From an uncultured Phycisphaerales bacterium (lineage in GTDB: Bacteria; Planctomycetota; Phycisphaerae; Tepidisphaerales; Tepidisphaeraceae): DNA of 64,000 nucleotides. Within the stretch, counting starts at the first letter, position 1; every line of letters begins with the position of its first letter. Where the stretch lies: the NCBI GenBank assembly GCA_963755915.1, contig CAVWLP010000002.1, positions 288,001 to 352,000 of the forward strand. The letters are read 5' to 3'. Shown piece after piece: positions 14,156 through 62,422 of the stretch. The notes below the pieces were generated by a model. The model ran no database searches and had not been told where the DNA came from. It was given only the letters and a program-made list of their open reading frames with translations. The position numbers and the translations under genes were made by a program.

Positions 14156-14266
14156 AACTATGAAGCCGAGCCTTTCTCGGGACGTGAACGGGGTCAAAAT
14201 GCCCCAAGTATGAACGAGCGTACCGCGTAGGTCGCTCAAACGTCTTTTTTGAGAAAGGACTCGGCA

Positions 14267-15310
14267 ATGCGAATTCTCGCTTTGGACCTGGGAAAGAACA
14301 AGAGCGTTTTTGTGGATTATGTCACCGGCGGTGGAGAAAGAACGTTCGGCAAGATCGGCACCAATGCCCACGAGGTGCAAAAACTACTCGAGCGGGTGCG
14401 TCCGGATCGACTGGTCATCGAGGCCGGTCCGGCGGCAGGATGGGTTTGTGATCTGGCGGAGCGGAACAATGTTCCCGTCCAGGTGGCCAATGGCAACGAT
14501 GAACGCTGGCGCTGGAAGACGGTGAAGGAGAAGAGTGATCGTAAAGACGCGCTGAAGATGGCGGCGATGTCGGAGATGGATTCGCTGCCGACGGTGCACG
14601 TGCCCAAGGCATCGGTTCGGCAGTGGCGTTCATTGATTGAATACAGACACGGCCTGGTGGATCGCCGCACGGCGCTCAAGAACTCGATCCGATCAATCTA
14701 CGAGCGGCAGGGTTTGTATTTGCCCTCGGCGACCAAGGCGTGGACGAAAGCGCGACTGGAGGAAATGAGGAAGGAAGCAGCGGCCGCATCGGCGGAAGAT
14801 CTGTGGCTGTTTCAGATCGGTTGTGAGGTGGCGCAACTGGAGCACCTGGAGAAGCAGATCGAAACTGTCGAAAGCAAGCTTCAGGAGTTGGGCCAGGCCA
14901 ACAAAGCGGTGAAACGATTGCAGGAGGTGCCCGGCGTTGGTCCGCGGCTGAGCGAGGCGGTGGCGGTGATCATTGATGATCCCAGGCGATTCAAGAATGC
15001 ACGTCAGGTGGGATGTTACGTGGGTCTGACGCCGCGGCGCTGGCAGAGCGGCGACAGCGATCGCCAGGGGCGGATCAGCAAGGCAGGCAACGCGCTGCTG
15101 CGGGAGTTGCTGGTGGAGGTGGCGTGGCTGGGGGTTCATCGCAATACGTGGATGAAGGACGTGTACGAGAGGGTTCTACGTGACAGCGAGAAGCGCAAGA
15201 AGATCGCGATTGTTGCGGTAGCCAGGAGATTACTGGTGAAGCTGTGGGCGATGCTGCGGGACGGAACCCGATGGAGAGAACCCCAGCGATCGCTGACGGC
15301 GGCCACTTGA
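14267..15310 (+). CDS. IS110 DEDD transposase/recombinase
   Basis: LALDLGK, VIEAG, KSDRKDA, VPGVG, QSG, GRISKAGN and AVARRL motifs; RBS AAGGA. Confidence 0.95.
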   Translation: MRILALDLGKNKSVFVDYVTGGGERTFGKIGTNAHEVQKLLERVRPDRLVIEAGPAAGWVCDLAERNNVPVQVANGNDERWRWKTVKEKSDRKDALKMAAMSEMDSLPTVHVPKASVRQWRSLIEYRHGLVDRRTALKNSIRSIYERQGLYLPSATKAWTKARLEEMRKEAAAASAEDLWLFQIGCEVAQLEHLEKQIETVESKLQELGQANKAVKRLQEVPGVGPRLSEAVAVIIDDPRRFKNARQVGCYVGLTPRRWQSGDSDRQGRISKAGNALLRELLVEVAWLGVHRNTWMKDVYERVLRDSEKRKKIAIVAVARRLLVKLWAMLRDGTRWREPQRSLTAAT

Positions 15311-15615
15311 AAATCGAAAAGGCGATGACTGTCCCGACAAGTCGGTACAGGCGATGGAGTATCTCCCCTCCGGAAGACACCGTGTCAGAAAGCCGTTGTC
15401 TTCTGTGCAGGGGATTGAGTAGAGTTGAAGTGAAGTGGAATTGACGCGTTCGTGCAGGTTGAATGAGCAAGGCCAGACCCCGGTTGGCGTCTTAAGCTTC
15501 AAAGCTTGCCGCTAAGAATAGGGCTGGCCATTTGTACAGTTGAATAGGCCCGCCGCCAGGCGAGAGCACTGAATAGAAGGCTCACCCAATCGACCGCATG
15601 AGCGATCAACGCCCC
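15311..15615 (+). ncRNA. Putative bridge/seek guide RNA of IS1111 #1 (ends uncertain)
   Basis: Stem 15471-15480 / 15521-15529 encloses TTGGCGTCTT and CCGCTAAGA, which match the two target halves. ATAGAAG (15573-15579) matches the element end. Confidence 0.78.
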
Positions 15616-15621
15616 TTGACA
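15616..15621 (+). promoter_or_regulatory. Outward -35 box for the circle-junction promoter
   Basis: TTGACA next to the right sub-terminal IR, as is typical of IS1111 elements. Confidence 0.6.
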
Positions 15622-15682
15622 AGGCTCGGCTCATAGAAGACGCCAAGAGCCAAGAAAATGCAGGAGGGTGAGATTTAACGCG

Positions 15683-44520: not shown

Positions 44521-44793
44521 GTAGAGTAGAGAACTGAACGACCCGATTGCCGCTCAGCTCTCCCTCTTCGAACCGGACGAGCGGGTTTCCCGCATCCGGC
44601 TCTCACGGTATTGTTCTTCTCAAGCATTCACGGTCGGAACAGGTCGCAGGCTGATGAGGCCCAGACGCTGCAACTGTTCGTACCAGCTCCTCGCTCCGCG
44701 CACACGGAACGGACGCTGGCTGCGACGTTTAAGGTGTCGTTCCAGTCGCTCCTGCACAAATCGGTTGATCTGACGGAACGCCTTGCGCGGATA
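44521..44793 (-). mobile_element. Group II intron 3' fragment (end of RT ORF, domains V-VI)
   Basis: Identical by eye to 56906-57178; retains the exact intron 3' end. Confidence 0.92.
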
Positions 44794-56905: not shown

Positions 56906-58878
56906 GTAGAGTAGAGAACTGAACGACCCGATTGCCGCTCAGCTCTCCCTCTTCGAACCGGACGAGCGGGTTTCCCGCATCCGGCTCTCACGGTATTGTT
57001 CTTCTCAAGCATTCACGGTCGGAACAGGTCGCAGGCTGATGAGGCCCAGACGCTGCAACTGTTCGTACCAGCTCCTCGCTCCGCGCACACGGAACGGACG
57101 CTGGCTGCGACGTTTAAGGTGTCGTTCCAGTCGCTCCTGCACAAATCGGTTGATCTGACGGAACGCCTTGCGCGGATAGCCTTTGCCGAAGTAGTTGGCC
57201 CATCCTCTCAGGTGCTCGTTGATCTGTACGATCAACGCCGGGATGGGCACAAAGCCTGCTTCGGGTCCGGTCATCTCCCGCAATTTGTCCCGCTCACGCT
57301 GCATCGACTTGCTCGAAGGACAGAGGTTCAGATAACGCCCCGGCCCGCCTTGCAGGCTCCGGTCGTACCGGAACCTGTACCCGAGAAAGTTCAGACTTTC
57401 GCCCGGCTCTTTCAACTTCACCGTGCGGGTCTTGTCGGTGTTGATCGTCAGATCAAACCGGCCTTGCAGCGTGCGTTCCACGAACTGCTTGATCTGAGGG
57501 CCTATATACCTTGCCATGATGACAAAGTCGTCGGCGTACCGGATCAGCCGGGCGTTCGCCCAGCGATGCGGGCCATCGGATCGGTGGAACAATTTATCAA
57601 ACCAGTGCAGATATAGGTTGGCCAGCAGCGGCGAGATCACTCCGCCCTGCGGCGTTCCCTGTTTGCTCCGGGTGACTTTCGGTGGATCGCCGGGCTTCTC
57701 GCCTTCTTCGACGATCACCGCCTTCAGCCACATCCGGATCAGCTTCAGCACGCTTCCGTCCGTGATCCGCTTCTGGACACACGCCATCAGTTTCTCATGG
57801 GGAATCGTGTCGAAGTACGACTGCAAATCCGCGTCATACACTTCCCTTCGGCCCTGCTGGAGGTTTTGCTTGATCGCCTCCAGCGCATCGTGAGCCGAGC
57901 GACCGGGACGGAATCCATACGAACAGTCCAGGAAATCCGCCTCGAAGATCGGCTCGATGAGCAGCAGCACCGCCATCTGCACCACGCGATCTCGGATCGT
58001 GGGGATGCCCAATGGACGCCGCTTGCCGTTGGCTTTGGGAATGTACACGCGCTTCACCGGCTGCGGGCGGTAGGTGCGGGTCTTGAGCGATTCTTCGATC
58101 TCGCTCAGGAATCCACTGACGCCGTGCTCGGAGTTTTGCACCTTCTCGATGCTCACCCCGTCCAAGCCGGGCGCCCCGCCGTTGGCGGACACCCGGTCCC
58201 ACGCCGCTTCCAGAACATCGCGCCGGCAGATCCGGTCGTACAAGGTGTAAAACCGAAACCCCGGTTCCCGCTTGGCTTTGAGGTATAGCTTCTGTCTCAG
58301 AAGAAAGACTTTCCCCGGCAGACCCCTGGAGTTCACCCTCAGGTGCTCCGGCAAGTCTGTCGGATCATCCGTACTGTCAGGTTGTCCCTGCAAGCGGGCC
58401 TCTCTTCTTCTTACTTCCGCTCGATACCGTCAGGGCTCCTTGGCTCGCGGCAGGCTTCGCCTCCGCTCACGGGCATTACCCCGCTTCTCAGCTACTATGA
58501 GCCCATCCGACTCCCCACGCTTCCCGTCCCTTGGTTATGTCTTTCCAACGAGCCGCACAACGATGCGTGGGGTCTCTCAGTTCCCGATCTTGTCTGTCGG
58601 CACGCGCCGTCCCCATCGACCCCGAGGAGCCGGACGATTGCTCGCACCCGCTGCTTCATCGTCCGCGCCGGCTTGGCCCTCTCTGACGGGTTGGCCACTC
58701 CCATTGGCGTAACGAGGCTGGTTTGGGTTCGCTTAACGCTACGGCTCGCGCCTTCGCCTTCCGGGGCTTCGCGCGACCGATTGCTCCGTCGTCACGCCCG
58801 GGCGGCTACACGGCTAACGGGTCATTCCATGGTGAACTCCTTTCAGTTCACAAGACAAAACCGGTTTCACTGACGCAC
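56906..58878 (-). mobile_element. Group II intron (full length, 1973 nt)
   Basis: 5' GTGCG at 58878; domain V GAGCCGGATGCGGGAAACCCGCTCGTCCGGTTC; 3' end CTCTAC; internal RT ORF. Confidence 0.95.
57005..58393 (-). CDS. ltrA: Group II intron reverse transcriptase/maturase, no endonuclease domain
   Basis: [33 protein letters not shown] and LRGWANYF motifs. Confidence 0.95.
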
Positions 58879-60146: not shown

Positions 60147-60469
60147 CGTTTGCCGCAACAGCGGAGGGAAAATGGTGGCTTGGTTGCACGGGAATTGCAA
60201 ATTTTACGGGAAAGTTGCGAGTGGCGAGTGAAAGGCAATGTCGTTTACTCGCAGAGCAATCGCATATGGCCTGAGAAAACCGAAAGGCCCCCATTCTAAC
60301 TCCGGACAACTCGGGACTTCGCTTCGCTGTGCCTTGAATCCGCCGGGGAGGCCGGATTTACATTGAAAAAAGAAGGAAGAGTATTTTCGGTTACGGTCTG
60401 GGTGACGAGGAAATGCGGGGGCTCGAATATCCATGAAAGGCTTCCCCGATCAACAAAAAAATTCTCCTC

Positions 60470-60700
60470 GCGAAAAGCGGTTACTTCTTTTTCATTCCGA
60501 GACCTCTTCGTCCGTCTGCCGGCTGGTGACTGGCCTCTCGGCGGTCCATATATCCATTCGTGCTGGCCGGGCCCGATCAACAGCGTTTGGCCGAGCGGCA
60601 CATGATCTCATCCGGCGCGGGCGGCCCAATTATAACGTGGCCTCTCGAGCCTGAATTGCTTCGGGCTCATGGCCAATTCGAGCCAGGGCTGGCCCACTTC
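60470..60700 (-). ncRNA. Putative bridge/seek guide RNA of IS1111 #2 (ends uncertain; overlaps transposase 3' end)
   Basis: Stem-enclosed GGCTCGAAT (60676-60684) and TTATA (60631-60635) match the target. ATGGATA (60551-60557) matches the element end. Confidence 0.7.
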
Positions 60701-61829
60701 CGGACGAGATCAGTTCCTTATGTCTTTTGCTTCCCGGTCTTGGGGGCGGCACCTCCTGATAATCCTGGTTGTTGTTCCACATTGAATAGACGATCCGACA
60801 TATGCGGTTGGCGACGGTGATGTAGCCGCGACCGCGGTCCTGTTTGCCGTTGTTGGTACGGCGATTGAAAAGTTCTCGCAAAAAAGCGTCCCTTTGCACT
60901 GCCGAGTGGGCGGCCTGAATAAAGGCCCACTGAAGGGTAGTGCGACCGGCGTGACCAAGTCGGCGGCCGATGGGCTTGGCATCGCGATCTTCTCCGCTGT
61001 CGTCGGCCTGCGGCGCCAGCAGGCTGTATTGGAGCAGGCATCGACTGGAGGAGAAACGATCGATTCGGCCGATCTCGGCGACCAGCGTATATCCCAGCAC
61101 GGTGGAGATGCCCGGCACGGTCATCAGGCGCTGGCCGATCTCCGATCGTTTCATGGTCGCGCGGAACCGGCGGGTGGCCCGTGCGATCAGGCGACGCAGA
61201 GAATCCAGCAGCATGAGATCTTCCTTGAGCGTCTGGCGTCCTGAGAGGCTCAGGGTCTTGTCCTCGGTGAGCAGCGACAGGAAACGCCGGCCCTGCACAC
61301 CGAAGAGGTCGGTGAGCTCGCTGACGATTCCATGGCGGTGCAGCGTCGCGTGAATGCGATTTTTCAACTGCGTTTGAGCCTGAACGAGGGTCATCCGATG
61401 GCGCAGCAGCTCCCGCTGATCACGAATCTCGCGTGGGGCCAGCCAGACTTCCCACCAGCGCTTCATGATGCCTCGCTTAAATATCGGTTTTTCGTTCCAG
61501 AGTTCACTGAGCAGGTCGGCATCGACCTTGTTGCTCTTGGCGATCCCGCGTCCTTCCCGCCATGCCGCCACTTTGCGGCTCGAGGCCAGGTGGGGCTGCA
61601 TGTTCAAAATCTGCAACTCATCGCTGAGCCATCCCCAGCCAAATGTCGCTTCCAGGATCACCGGCGTGCCTCGCGGCCACTGAGCGATTCGCTCTCGAAG
61701 CTTTTGGCGATCCAGGTGATCCAGGCGTTCGCGAGCAATGACCTTCCCGGAAGCGTCGCGCAGACTGGCGGACGAGAACTTCCGATGGACGTCCAGCCCT
61801 ACCTGAACTACCTTGTCGTATAACTTCAT
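60630..61829 (-). CDS. IS110 transposase/recombinase
   Basis: VGLDVH, ILEAT, KSNKVDA, VPGIS and DDSGE motifs; RBS AGGAG. Confidence 0.92.
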   Translation of the reverse strand: MKLYDKVVQVGLDVHRKFSSASLRDASGKVIARERLDHLDRQKLRERIAQWPRGTPVILEATFGWGWLSDELQILNMQPHLASSRKVAAWREGRGIAKSNKVDADLLSELWNEKPIFKRGIMKRWWEVWLAPREIRDQRELLRHRMTLVQAQTQLKNRIHATLHRHGIVSELTDLFGVQGRRFLSLLTEDKTLSLSGRQTLKEDLMLLDSLRRLIARATRRFRATMKRSEIGQRLMTVPGISTVLGYTLVAEIGRIDRFSSSRCLLQYSLLAPQADDSGEDRDAKPIGRRLGHAGRTTLQWAFIQAAHSAVQRDAFLRELFNRRTNNGKQDRGRGYITVANRICRIVYSMWNNNQDYQEVPPPRPGSKRHKELISSGSGPALARIGHEPEAIQAREATL

Positions 61830-62422
61830 GGCTATCTCCTTGTGTGAATGACACCAAAACCGGAATGTTAACTTCCGGCAGGGAGATGGCCTTTCATGCG
61901 ATTATAAAACGCGGTTCCGCCGCGATAGCACGTGGCTGCCCCGGTGACGTTCGGTGCGACCTTGAGGTGTTGGGCGGGAAAGCGCCGTGCAAGCACGGCG
62001 GCTACACGGGGAGAAGCTGGGAACGGCCTCCGGCCTGAGTTTCGCGGAGTACTGCCCAAGCACCTCCGGTGCTTTCGGCGGCAGGGCGCGTAAGGAGTTT
62101 CGAGCACATGCTCGACCGAGCTCAATCGCCGCTGGGCTTCCGTCAGGAATCCGCCTTGTCCGACCTCCCCGGTGGATACTTTCAATTCGTGGCATTTGTG
62201 GCGAAACAGGGCCGGACGAGGGGGATGGCGCCGTTCGGCCTATATTGCAGGGCTCGGACGATTGGTCTGCGAGGAATATGTGGGTAATGGCAAGCGGAGT
62301 GCGAGGGGAGGGGAGAAAAGGGCACATGGGATTGCCCTGCATTTGCTGGCAGCACGCGACTCCCGGCAATTGAACAATGCCACGCCTACCATTACATTGC
62401 CGCTTTAACGGGAGACAGCGTT

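What the first reader, a model, noticed from the sequence alone, without database searches (positions are those of the whole stretch)
60420..61915. IS1111 #2: same guide architecture with different guides, and the target loop lies inside the CDS
Seen: the empty site is ggggctcgaa-TA-taaaacg. On the transposase strand, a stem gggccagccc / gggccgccc (60686-60695 / 60618-60627) encloses GGCTCGAAT (9/9 match to one target half), a long hairpin, and TTATA (5-nt match to the other half). ATGGATA (60551-60557) matches the element end. The order of segments and the core-to-IR spacing are the same as in element #1 although the sequences differ, so guide and target covary within this window. The target loop overlaps the last ~22 codons of the transposase ORF. 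Inference: a dual-coding guide, so retargeting would change the protein tail.
Basis: partly seen in the sequence, partly recalled or inferred. Interest (0 to 1): 0.82.

Follow-up and report, generated by a model that had tools for sequence, protein, structure and literature searches.

The report
Guide RNA loop inside transposase gene
This mobile element carries the known kind of guide ("bridge") RNA that picks its insertion site, but here the part that reads the target lies inside the end of the transposase gene, so changing the target also changes the protein's tail.

Summary
Window 60430-61902 (minus strand) is an IS1111-type insertion sequence, present in 4 identical copies, all in one repeat family. 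Unoccupied copies of that repeat show a TA core.

A 110-nt stem/internal-loop/hairpin structure (60603-60712) carries two guides. The 9-nt guide at 60676-60684 is identical to the plus strand of the low-coordinate flank. A shorter guide at 60629-60635 matches the junction at the other end.

In relatives, the first guide tracks its own flank in 50 of 60 elements, against 22 of 2610 mismatched pairs. The second guide tracks more weakly. A downstream loop tracks the element's right end.

The transposase ORF (60630-61829) runs through the first guide. It stops at a UAA inside the second guide, at the bases that match the crossover core. This is a clade habit: 81 of 88 readable relatives run into the RNA, in all three reading frames. 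The conservation is therefore at the RNA level. The 33-residue tail is predicted to be disordered.

The mechanism (bridge/seek RNA) was published in 2024. I found no paper stating that the guide overlaps the coding sequence. Verdict: a real feature and a new variant of a known kind, of moderate interest.

The parts
60430..61902 (-). Body of the IS1111-type element (1473 bp), flanked by the TA core at 60428-60429 and 61903-61904
   Evidence: 4 identical copies in the genome. Identity to the other copies ends in a shared repeat family. Empty sites exist in the same genome. The ends are defined by comparison with relatives.
60630..61829 (-). Transposase ORF, 399 aa (stop codon 60630-60632)
   Evidence: ORF list. 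PF01548 and PF02371. NF033542 'IS110 family RNA-guided transposase' covers residues 10-355. Residues 367-399 have pLDDT below 50.
61889..61898 (-). Left subterminal inverted repeat, 4 nt inside the core
   Evidence: Present in relatives at the same distance from the core; coordinates.
60432..60441 (-). Right subterminal inverted repeat, 2 nt inside the core
60603..60712 (-). Target-binding structure: outer stem, inner stems, a 10+10-nt internal loop and a central hairpin
   Evidence: Fold z = -6.84. Inner stems are 99.6% paired in 56 relatives, with swaps on both sides.
60676..60684 (-). Guide A (5' side of the loop). It is identical to the plus strand of flank 60420-60428, so it pairs with the other strand of that flank. 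It lies in codons 382-385 of the ORF.
60638..60675 (-). Central hairpin between the two guides
   Evidence: The base of the hairpin covaries: UA to CG in 16 of 56 relatives.
60628..60637 (-). Guide B loop (3' side). 60629-60635 matches 3 nt of the other flank, the TA core and the first 2 nt of the left end. The ORF's stop codon UAA (60630-60632) is the core UA plus the next A.
   Evidence: The core UA is invariant in 56 of 56 aligned relatives.
60550..60557 (-). Donor-loop guide, identical to the right end plus core (60427-60434)
   Evidence: It covaries with the right end in the 5 aligned relatives that have a different right end.
60528..60547 (-). Hairpin after the donor guide
   Evidence: Swaps on both sides: AU to GC in 24 of 56 and CG to AU/UA/GC in 20 of 56.
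60444..60463 (-). Run of 7 U after a hairpin (likely transcript end), then a -35-like hexamer. Once the ends are joined, this hexamer would stand 16 nt before a -10-like hexamer that is formed across the junction.
   Evidence: Read directly from the sequence and conserved in relatives. The consensus scan did not list it. Inference only.
60420..60427 (.). Target half next to the right end of the element
61905..61924 (.). Target half next to the left end. A terminator-like hairpin of the host repeat ends here.

Best explanation
This is an IS1111-type insertion sequence guided by a bridge (seek) RNA made from the 3' part of its own transposase transcript.

The RNA's target-binding loop holds two short guides. 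One pairs with one strand of the flank on the right-end side of the insertion site. The other pairs with the opposite strand of the left-end flank plus the TA crossover core. A second loop downstream recognises the element's own right end.

In this clade the RNA gene abuts the transposase gene so closely that the ORF has no stop of its own. Translation runs on through the 5' stems and the main guide. It ends at the first stop the RNA offers, which here is the UAA that matches the crossover core.

The extra 27-33 residues are most likely a tolerated, disordered by-product whose sequence is dictated by the RNA.

Shown: the anatomy, the guide/flank covariation, the stem covariation, and the ORF overlap across the clade. 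Inferred: that the RNA is made, is processed and binds the transposase, and that the circle junction forms a promoter.
For: Family: PF01548 and PF02371. NF033542 covers residues 10-355.

Site specificity: 4 of 4 copies sit at the same point of one repeat, and 10 unoccupied repeat units are present in the genome.

Guide A against the right flank: 50 of 60 elements have at least 5 contiguous matching nt next to the core, against 22 of 2610 mismatched pairs. The set holds 45 distinct guides and 40 distinct flanks.

Guide B: 26 of 68 elements have at least 3 nt beyond the core, against 306 of 4328 mismatched pairs.

Donor loop: it changes together with the right end in the 5 aligned relatives (L108, L110-L113) whose right end differs.

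Structure: z = -6.84. The inner stems are 99.6% paired with compensatory swaps, and no slid control exceeds 42% paired.

Overlap: of 74 elements with consensus stems, the ORF ends in the central hairpin in 49. It ends in the guide-B loop in 22 (17 of them at the conserved TAA), in the 5' stems in 2, in guide A in 1, and upstream in 0.

RNA-level conservation:
- The 5' stem is read in three frames, 57/13/4.
- By regular expressions on the tail motifs, 116 of 120 protein homologues carry one of three frame-specific tail motifs.
- Third-position differences fall from 0.358 in the core to 0.156 in the overlap.

Tail: pLDDT is below 50 for residues 367-399.
Against: - There is no direct RNA evidence. 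The only RNA-library contigs come from a roughly 90%-similar relative and could be DNA.
- In the window's own copy, guide B matches only 3 flank nt plus the core.
- I found no second donor guide for the left end.
- The outer stem has a competing partner. Its 3' strand can also pair with a segment downstream of the donor loop (95.9% paired, AU to GC swap in 6 of 56). The mature fold is therefore not settled.
- Ten of 60 elements fall below the guide A threshold. Two are my own parsing errors, most of the others have one mismatch next to the core, and one (L058) does not match.
- The whole 292-nt end folds only slightly better than shuffles (z = -1.91).
Confidence: 0.88

Rival explanations
1. 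Translation into the guide loop is itself selected. Keeping the frame open up to the RNA would couple or gate protein and guide production on one transcript. For example, a ribosome could unfold the loop, or could shield the transcript until the RNA is made. Cutting the guide out would leave an mRNA without a stop codon.
For: The linker between the conserved protein and the RNA has no in-frame stop in 74 of 74 elements. The two other frames have stops in 24 and 26 of the 74 (35 and 44 stops in 3620 nt). No ORF runs past the loop into the 3' strands (0 of 74). Linkers reach 183 nt and stay open.
Against: When the 17 elements I had set aside are added, 7 of 88 stop upstream of the RNA. At least 5 of those 7 look intact, so reading into the loop is not required. 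Relatives are not independent, so the contrast is overstated. A harmless run-on with weak selection on a basic, proline-rich linker would look similar. No expression data exist.
Confidence: 0.22
2. The C-terminal tail is a functional protein segment, and the nucleotide conservation reflects protein constraint rather than an RNA.
For: The tail motif looks conserved in a protein alignment of 120 homologues.
Against: The same nucleotides are read in three different frames in different clades, which gives three different peptides. The variable part follows the flanking DNA. The tail is predicted to be disordered and lies beyond the family profile, which ends at residue 355.
Confidence: 0.03
3. The long ORF is an assembly or sequencing error, and the true stop lies upstream of 60700.
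For: None found.
Against: The 4 copies are identical. Contigs from runs X3 and X4 match 60300-61261 and 60422-61664 with 0 differences, though these come from the same study as the likely source. And 81 of 88 relatives from other assemblies have the same arrangement.
Confidence: 0.02
4. The matches to the flanks are chance, or remnants of the target carried in a structured terminator, with no guiding role.
For: Short matches are common. The 9-mer also occurs at three unrelated places in the window.
Against: Forty-five distinct guides follow 40 distinct flanks. The position in a symmetric internal loop is fixed across relatives.
Confidence: 0.02

Closest known systems
seekRNAs of the IS1111 members ISEc11, ISPa11 and ISKpn4 (Siddiquee et al. 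2024, PMC11187229; I read the abstract, matched passages and section 8)
   Same: A DEDD transposase with subterminal inverted repeats. The guide RNA is encoded 3' of the catalytic part of tnp. Two short segments match opposite strands of the target around a hairpin. The short form is about 80-100 nt (the inner structure here is 82 nt, the full loop 110 nt). No promoter is apparent other than the one formed at the circle junction.
   Different: [quoted passage not shown] Here the 5' stems, the main guide and the hairpin are inside the ORF, and the stop codon lies in the second guide. The transposase has 399 aa against 339 for ISEc11.
Bridge RNAs predicted for IS1111-group elements (Durrant et al. 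2024, PMC11208160; matched passages read, figures and supplements not seen)
   Same: The RNA lies in the right end. There is one loop for the target and one for the donor. [quoted passage not shown] The right non-coding end is longer than the left (200 nt against 73 nt here).
   Different: That work defines the ends as non-coding, between core and CDS. Its flank sets took in only 50 bp of the 3' CDS. Here the overlap is about 80 nt and would be cut. I could not see their Supplementary Table 5 or Extended Data Fig. 10c, which may hold overlapping cases.
IS621 bridge RNA (IS110 group)
   Same: Each half-site is read by base pairing on opposite strands. Extra bases next to the core match the partner DNA, in the manner of the 'handshake' bases. 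That term and its role are recalled from the structural paper, not tested here.
   Different: In IS621 the RNA lies upstream of the gene in the left end and the guide order is reversed. No overlap with the ORF is described.
Element #1 of the same window (14157-15636, ORF 14249-15310)
   Same: The same order of guide, hairpin, guide. Its 10-nt guide (15484-15493) matches its own right junction 10 of 10, and its second guide (15509-15518) matches its left junction 9 of 10.
   Different: Its loop lies 174 nt downstream of the stop, in non-coding DNA. The transposase is only 24% identical. The repeat-to-core spacing differs.

Membership tests
IS110 family RNA-guided transposase | RuvC-like DEDD domain plus the C-terminal Tnp domain | tested here: met
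   PF01548 (E = 7e-9) and PF02371 (E = 2e-13). NF033542 scores 161.5 bits against a cut-off of 140 and covers profile positions 2-342 of 343.
IS110 family RNA-guided transposase | Conserved acidic residues and the SG motif in the C-terminal domain | tested here: met
   D13, E60, D103, S278 and G279 are invariant and D105 is nearly invariant in 36 homologues. The SG motif is as described in PMC11187229. Equating these residues with the catalytic residues of IS621 rests on recall.
IS1111 group | Subterminal inverted repeats with short asymmetric extensions beyond them | tested here: met
   A 10-bp repeat lies 4 nt (left) and 2 nt (right) inside the TA core.
IS1111 group | The longer non-coding region and the guide RNA lie downstream of tnp | tested here: inconclusive
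   The right non-coding end (200 nt) is longer than the left (73 nt), and the RNA is at the 3' side. But it is not wholly downstream of tnp: about 80 nt lie inside the ORF.
IS1111 group | Insertion at one specific sequence, with only the core shared | tested here: met
   4 of 4 copies sit at the same point of one repeat, and empty sites are present.
Bridge / seek RNA | Guides in an internal loop that covary with the target flanks | tested here: met
Bridge / seek RNA | A second loop that recognises both donor ends | tested here: inconclusive
   A guide for the right end was found and covaries. No guide for the left end was found by mutual information over the alignment.
Bridge / seek RNA | The RNA is expressed, is bound by the transposase and is needed for transposition | not testable with these tools
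   Only Logan contigs of an RNA library from a relative were available.
Rfam families | Match to a curated covariance model | tested here: not met
   No hit at gathering score or at E up to 1. This shows only that nothing in that release of Rfam matched this RNA.

The most novel reading that the evidence does not exclude
In this clade the transposase gene has given up its own stop codon so that ribosomes must enter the guide RNA. Each transcript then yields either protein (the ribosome melts the target loop) or a guide (cutting it out leaves a stop-less message whose product is degraded). This would be a built-in switch that limits transposition. The stop codon doubles as the bases that read the crossover core.
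Probability: 0.15. Interest if true: 0.75.

Novelty: new variant of a known kind. Interest (0 to 1): 0.55.

Why it matters
Bridge/seek RNAs are being mined and engineered on the assumption that they lie in the non-coding ends of IS110/IS1111 elements. Here a large soil and sediment clade keeps the main target guide inside the transposase ORF: at least 502 related stretches in one metagenome scan, of which I read 80.

- Searches limited to non-coding ends would truncate or miss these RNAs.
- ORF calls overstate the functional protein by about 30-45 residues.
- Any natural or engineered retargeting rewrites the protein tail unless the two are uncoupled.

The clade also gives a clean natural data set of guide/target pairs, with 45 guides and 40 targets. 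It raises a testable question: does translation through a guide RNA regulate it?

Tried and rejected
- Rfam: no family matched, either at gathering score over the whole window or at E up to 1 on 60400-60760.
- Phylum-wide genome search at E up to 1e-40: only the window's own genome among 401. The order-level search at 1e-30 gave 12 of 141.
- Promoter scan of the linear element: 0 promoter-like sites. The U-run terminator I read by eye was not listed.
- Left-end donor guide: mutual information between alignment columns and left-end positions 4-6 gave nothing convincing.
- RNA evidence: one metatranscriptome run (X8) holds contigs about 90% like 60379-60822, and an empty-site contig. As contigs of a relative, possibly DNA, they show neither transcription nor RNA ends. 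Parts without cover are not evidence.
- Empty site for element #1: not found with two patterns (and the first pattern). One possible site was seen.
- Literature: searches, and passages of PMC11208160, PMC11187229, PMC13604230 and PMC12288879, gave no statement that a bridge/seek RNA overlaps the tnp ORF. Supplements and figures were not visible.
- My first count of '0 of 74 stop upstream' came from elements picked by consensus stem motifs. Reading the 17 set aside changed it to 7 of 88.

Full report
**What is there.** The minus strand of window 60430-61902 carries a 399-aa ORF (60630-61829). It has the two Pfam domains of IS110-family transposases. It matches the NCBIfam model 'IS110 family RNA-guided transposase' over residues 10-355.

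The genome holds 4 copies that are identical over 1494-1496 nt. All four sit at the same point of a repeat of roughly 150 bp, and their flanks stay alike for tens of bases on both sides. A 19-nt motif of the flank finds 16 places in the genome: 4 occupied, 10 unoccupied repeat units and 2 unrelated. Two unoccupied units match both flanks exactly.

Occupied and empty sites share three bases. Relatives all have flank-TA-4 nt-repeat at the left end and repeat-2 nt-TA-flank at the right end, so the core is TA. The 10-bp subterminal inverted repeats lie at 61889-61898 and 60432-60441.

Every element it names is at the stated place.

- The 110 nt at 60603-60712 fold into a 13-bp outer stem and two inner stems. 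These enclose a symmetric 10+10-nt internal loop that flanks a 38-nt hairpin. The fold has z = -6.84, and 0 of 200 shuffles fold as well. The whole 292-nt end is far less distinctive (z = -1.91).
- The 5' side of the loop holds the 9-mer that is identical to the plus strand of the flank at 60420-60428.
- The 3' side holds 7 nt identical to the left junction: 3 flank bases, the TA core and the first 2 bases of the element.
- The ORF's stop codon is the core UA plus the next A.

**Is it a guide?** I collected relatives: 2 loci from a genome scan, 10 usable loci from the same order and the best 80 of 502 confirmed stretches from metagenomes. With the window this makes 91 elements, 46-90% identical in protein.

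*Guide A.* In the 60 elements where my parser found both the loop and the right junction, the guide's bases next to the core repeat the element's own flank. The match runs at least 5 contiguous nt in 50 of 60, with a median of 6. For pairs of elements with clearly different flanks it does so in 22 of 2610. The set holds 45 distinct guides and 40 distinct flank 8-mers. Of the 10 misses, 2 are parsing errors of mine, most of the rest have a single mismatch beside the core, and one (L058) does not match.

*Guide B.* It is shorter. At least 3 nt beyond the core match in 26 of 68 elements, against 306 of 4328 mismatched pairs.

*Donor loop.* The 8-mer at 60550-60557 equals the right end plus core. 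In the five aligned relatives whose right end has A instead of G at one position, the loop has the same change.

*Stems.* They covary. The inner stems are 99.6% paired in 56 sequences, with GC/CG and GC/AU swaps. The hairpin after the donor guide shows AU/GC swaps in 24. Controls with the partner slid by 1-3 columns pair in at most 42% of cells.

This is the architecture published for bridge/seek RNAs of IS1111-type elements (PMC11208160 and PMC11187229, passages read).

**The overlap.** In the window the ORF covers the outer and inner 5' stems, guide A and the hairpin, and it stops in guide B. This is not an error. The four copies agree, and DNA contigs of two further runs match without any difference.

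It is also not peculiar to this copy. Among 74 elements with consensus stems, the ORF ends as follows:

| ORF ends in | elements |
|---|---|
| central hairpin | 49 |
| guide-B loop (17 at the conserved TAA) | 22 |
| 5' stems | 2 |
| guide A | 1 |
| upstream of the RNA | 0 |

That subset was chosen by motif, so I read the 17 elements I had left out. Seven also run into the RNA. Seven stop upstream: one is a degenerate copy, one is frameshifted and was judged by its kin, two stop 8 nt before the stem, and three others stop upstream. Three cannot be read. Overall, 81 of 88 run into the RNA.

Of the 120 best protein homologues, 116 carry a tail motif that is a translation of the 5' stem, and 3 of the other 4 have variants of it.

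**RNA or protein constraint?** The same conserved stem is read in all three frames in different clades, 57/13/4. This gives three unrelated peptides.

Among four close relatives, differences per site at codon positions 1/2/3 are 0.109/0.062/0.358 in the core. In the overlap they are 0.112/0.062/0.156, on about 97 sites per position.

AlphaFold2 with 36 homologues gives a confident fold up to a last helix at 332-353. pLDDT is below 50 for residues 367-399. The family profile ends at residue 355. The tail is therefore best read as a run-on dictated by the RNA.

Retargeting does change it. L034 is 90% identical in protein. It has a different guide A that matches its own flank, and a different residue at that place in the tail.

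**What remains open.**
1. The linker between the conserved protein and the RNA is 10-183 nt long. It has no in-frame stop in the 74 elements, while the other two frames have stops in 24 and 26 of them. With the exceptions the contrast is 7 of 88 against about a third. This hints at selection to keep ribosomes running into the RNA. But the sequences are related, and the exceptions show it is not required.
2. The 3' strand of the outer stem can also pair with a segment downstream of the donor loop (95.9% paired, AU/GC swap in 6). The 5' strand can pair with a second copy of its partner further down (81.5% paired, 4 compensatory cells at one pair). The short and long forms of the RNA may therefore fold differently.
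3. I found no guide for the left end.
4. Expression is untested.

**Comparison and novelty.** The mechanism is known. What differs from the published cases is the position. There the RNAs map downstream of the tnp stop, in a non-coding region (PMC11187229 section 8, PMC13604230 and PMC12288879, passages). Element #1 of this same window follows that rule, with its loop 174 nt after the stop.

Five literature searches gave no paper that states an overlap. Figures and supplements could not be seen, and the Durrant flank sets did include 50 bp of the CDS, so overlapping cases may be recorded there.

I rate this a new variant of a known kind, real and clade-wide, of moderate interest.

Noticed in passing
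window 44521-44604, 56906-56989, 58610-58840 (minus strand): Rfam finds two group II intron domain hits with identical scores, plus a D1-D4 hit. There seem to be two copies of a group II intron in the window.
   Followed up: no
window 60360-60427 and 61905-62000; 10 further units in the genome: The target is a repeat family of roughly 150 bp. The insertion point lies just after a terminator-like hairpin followed by a T-run (61910-61924). Unoccupied units vary at the guide-matching bases.
   Followed up: partly
L018 1388-1442 and 2890-2960 (same in L035): In this 83%-identical relative the left flank is an exact inverted copy of the right flank, and the left end carries the right end's 2-nt extension instead of the usual 4 nt. 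The cause could be a palindromic target or a rearrangement between ends.
   Followed up: no
window 14157-15636: Element #1 is a second IS1111-type element, with 9 copies in the genome and a transposase 24% identical to this one. Its guide loop (15484-15518) lies in non-coding DNA 174 nt after the stop.
   Followed up: partly
window 60508-60523 against 60604-60617 and 60700-60711: The 3' strand of the outer stem, and a near-repeat of it downstream of the donor loop, offer two mutually exclusive pairings. Both show some compensatory change. This is a possible switch between short and long forms of the RNA.
   Followed up: partly
run X8 laid on window 60364-60822 and 60410/61903: A metatranscriptome library holds contigs of a roughly 90%-similar relative. 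They differ at two guide A positions (60678, 60683). The library also holds a contig of an unoccupied repeat unit whose flank carries the change matching 60678.
   Followed up: no
protein P0097 (461 aa): One homologue has a linker of about 60 residues made almost only of Asn and Ser between the conserved domain and the stem-encoded tail. It is still in frame.
   Followed up: no
guide A loops in A4, columns 35-46: Two registers of guide A occur. In one, the flank complement is followed by UAU. In the other, a 1-nt longer flank complement is followed by UU, as in the window, so that only one core base is paired.
   Followed up: partly
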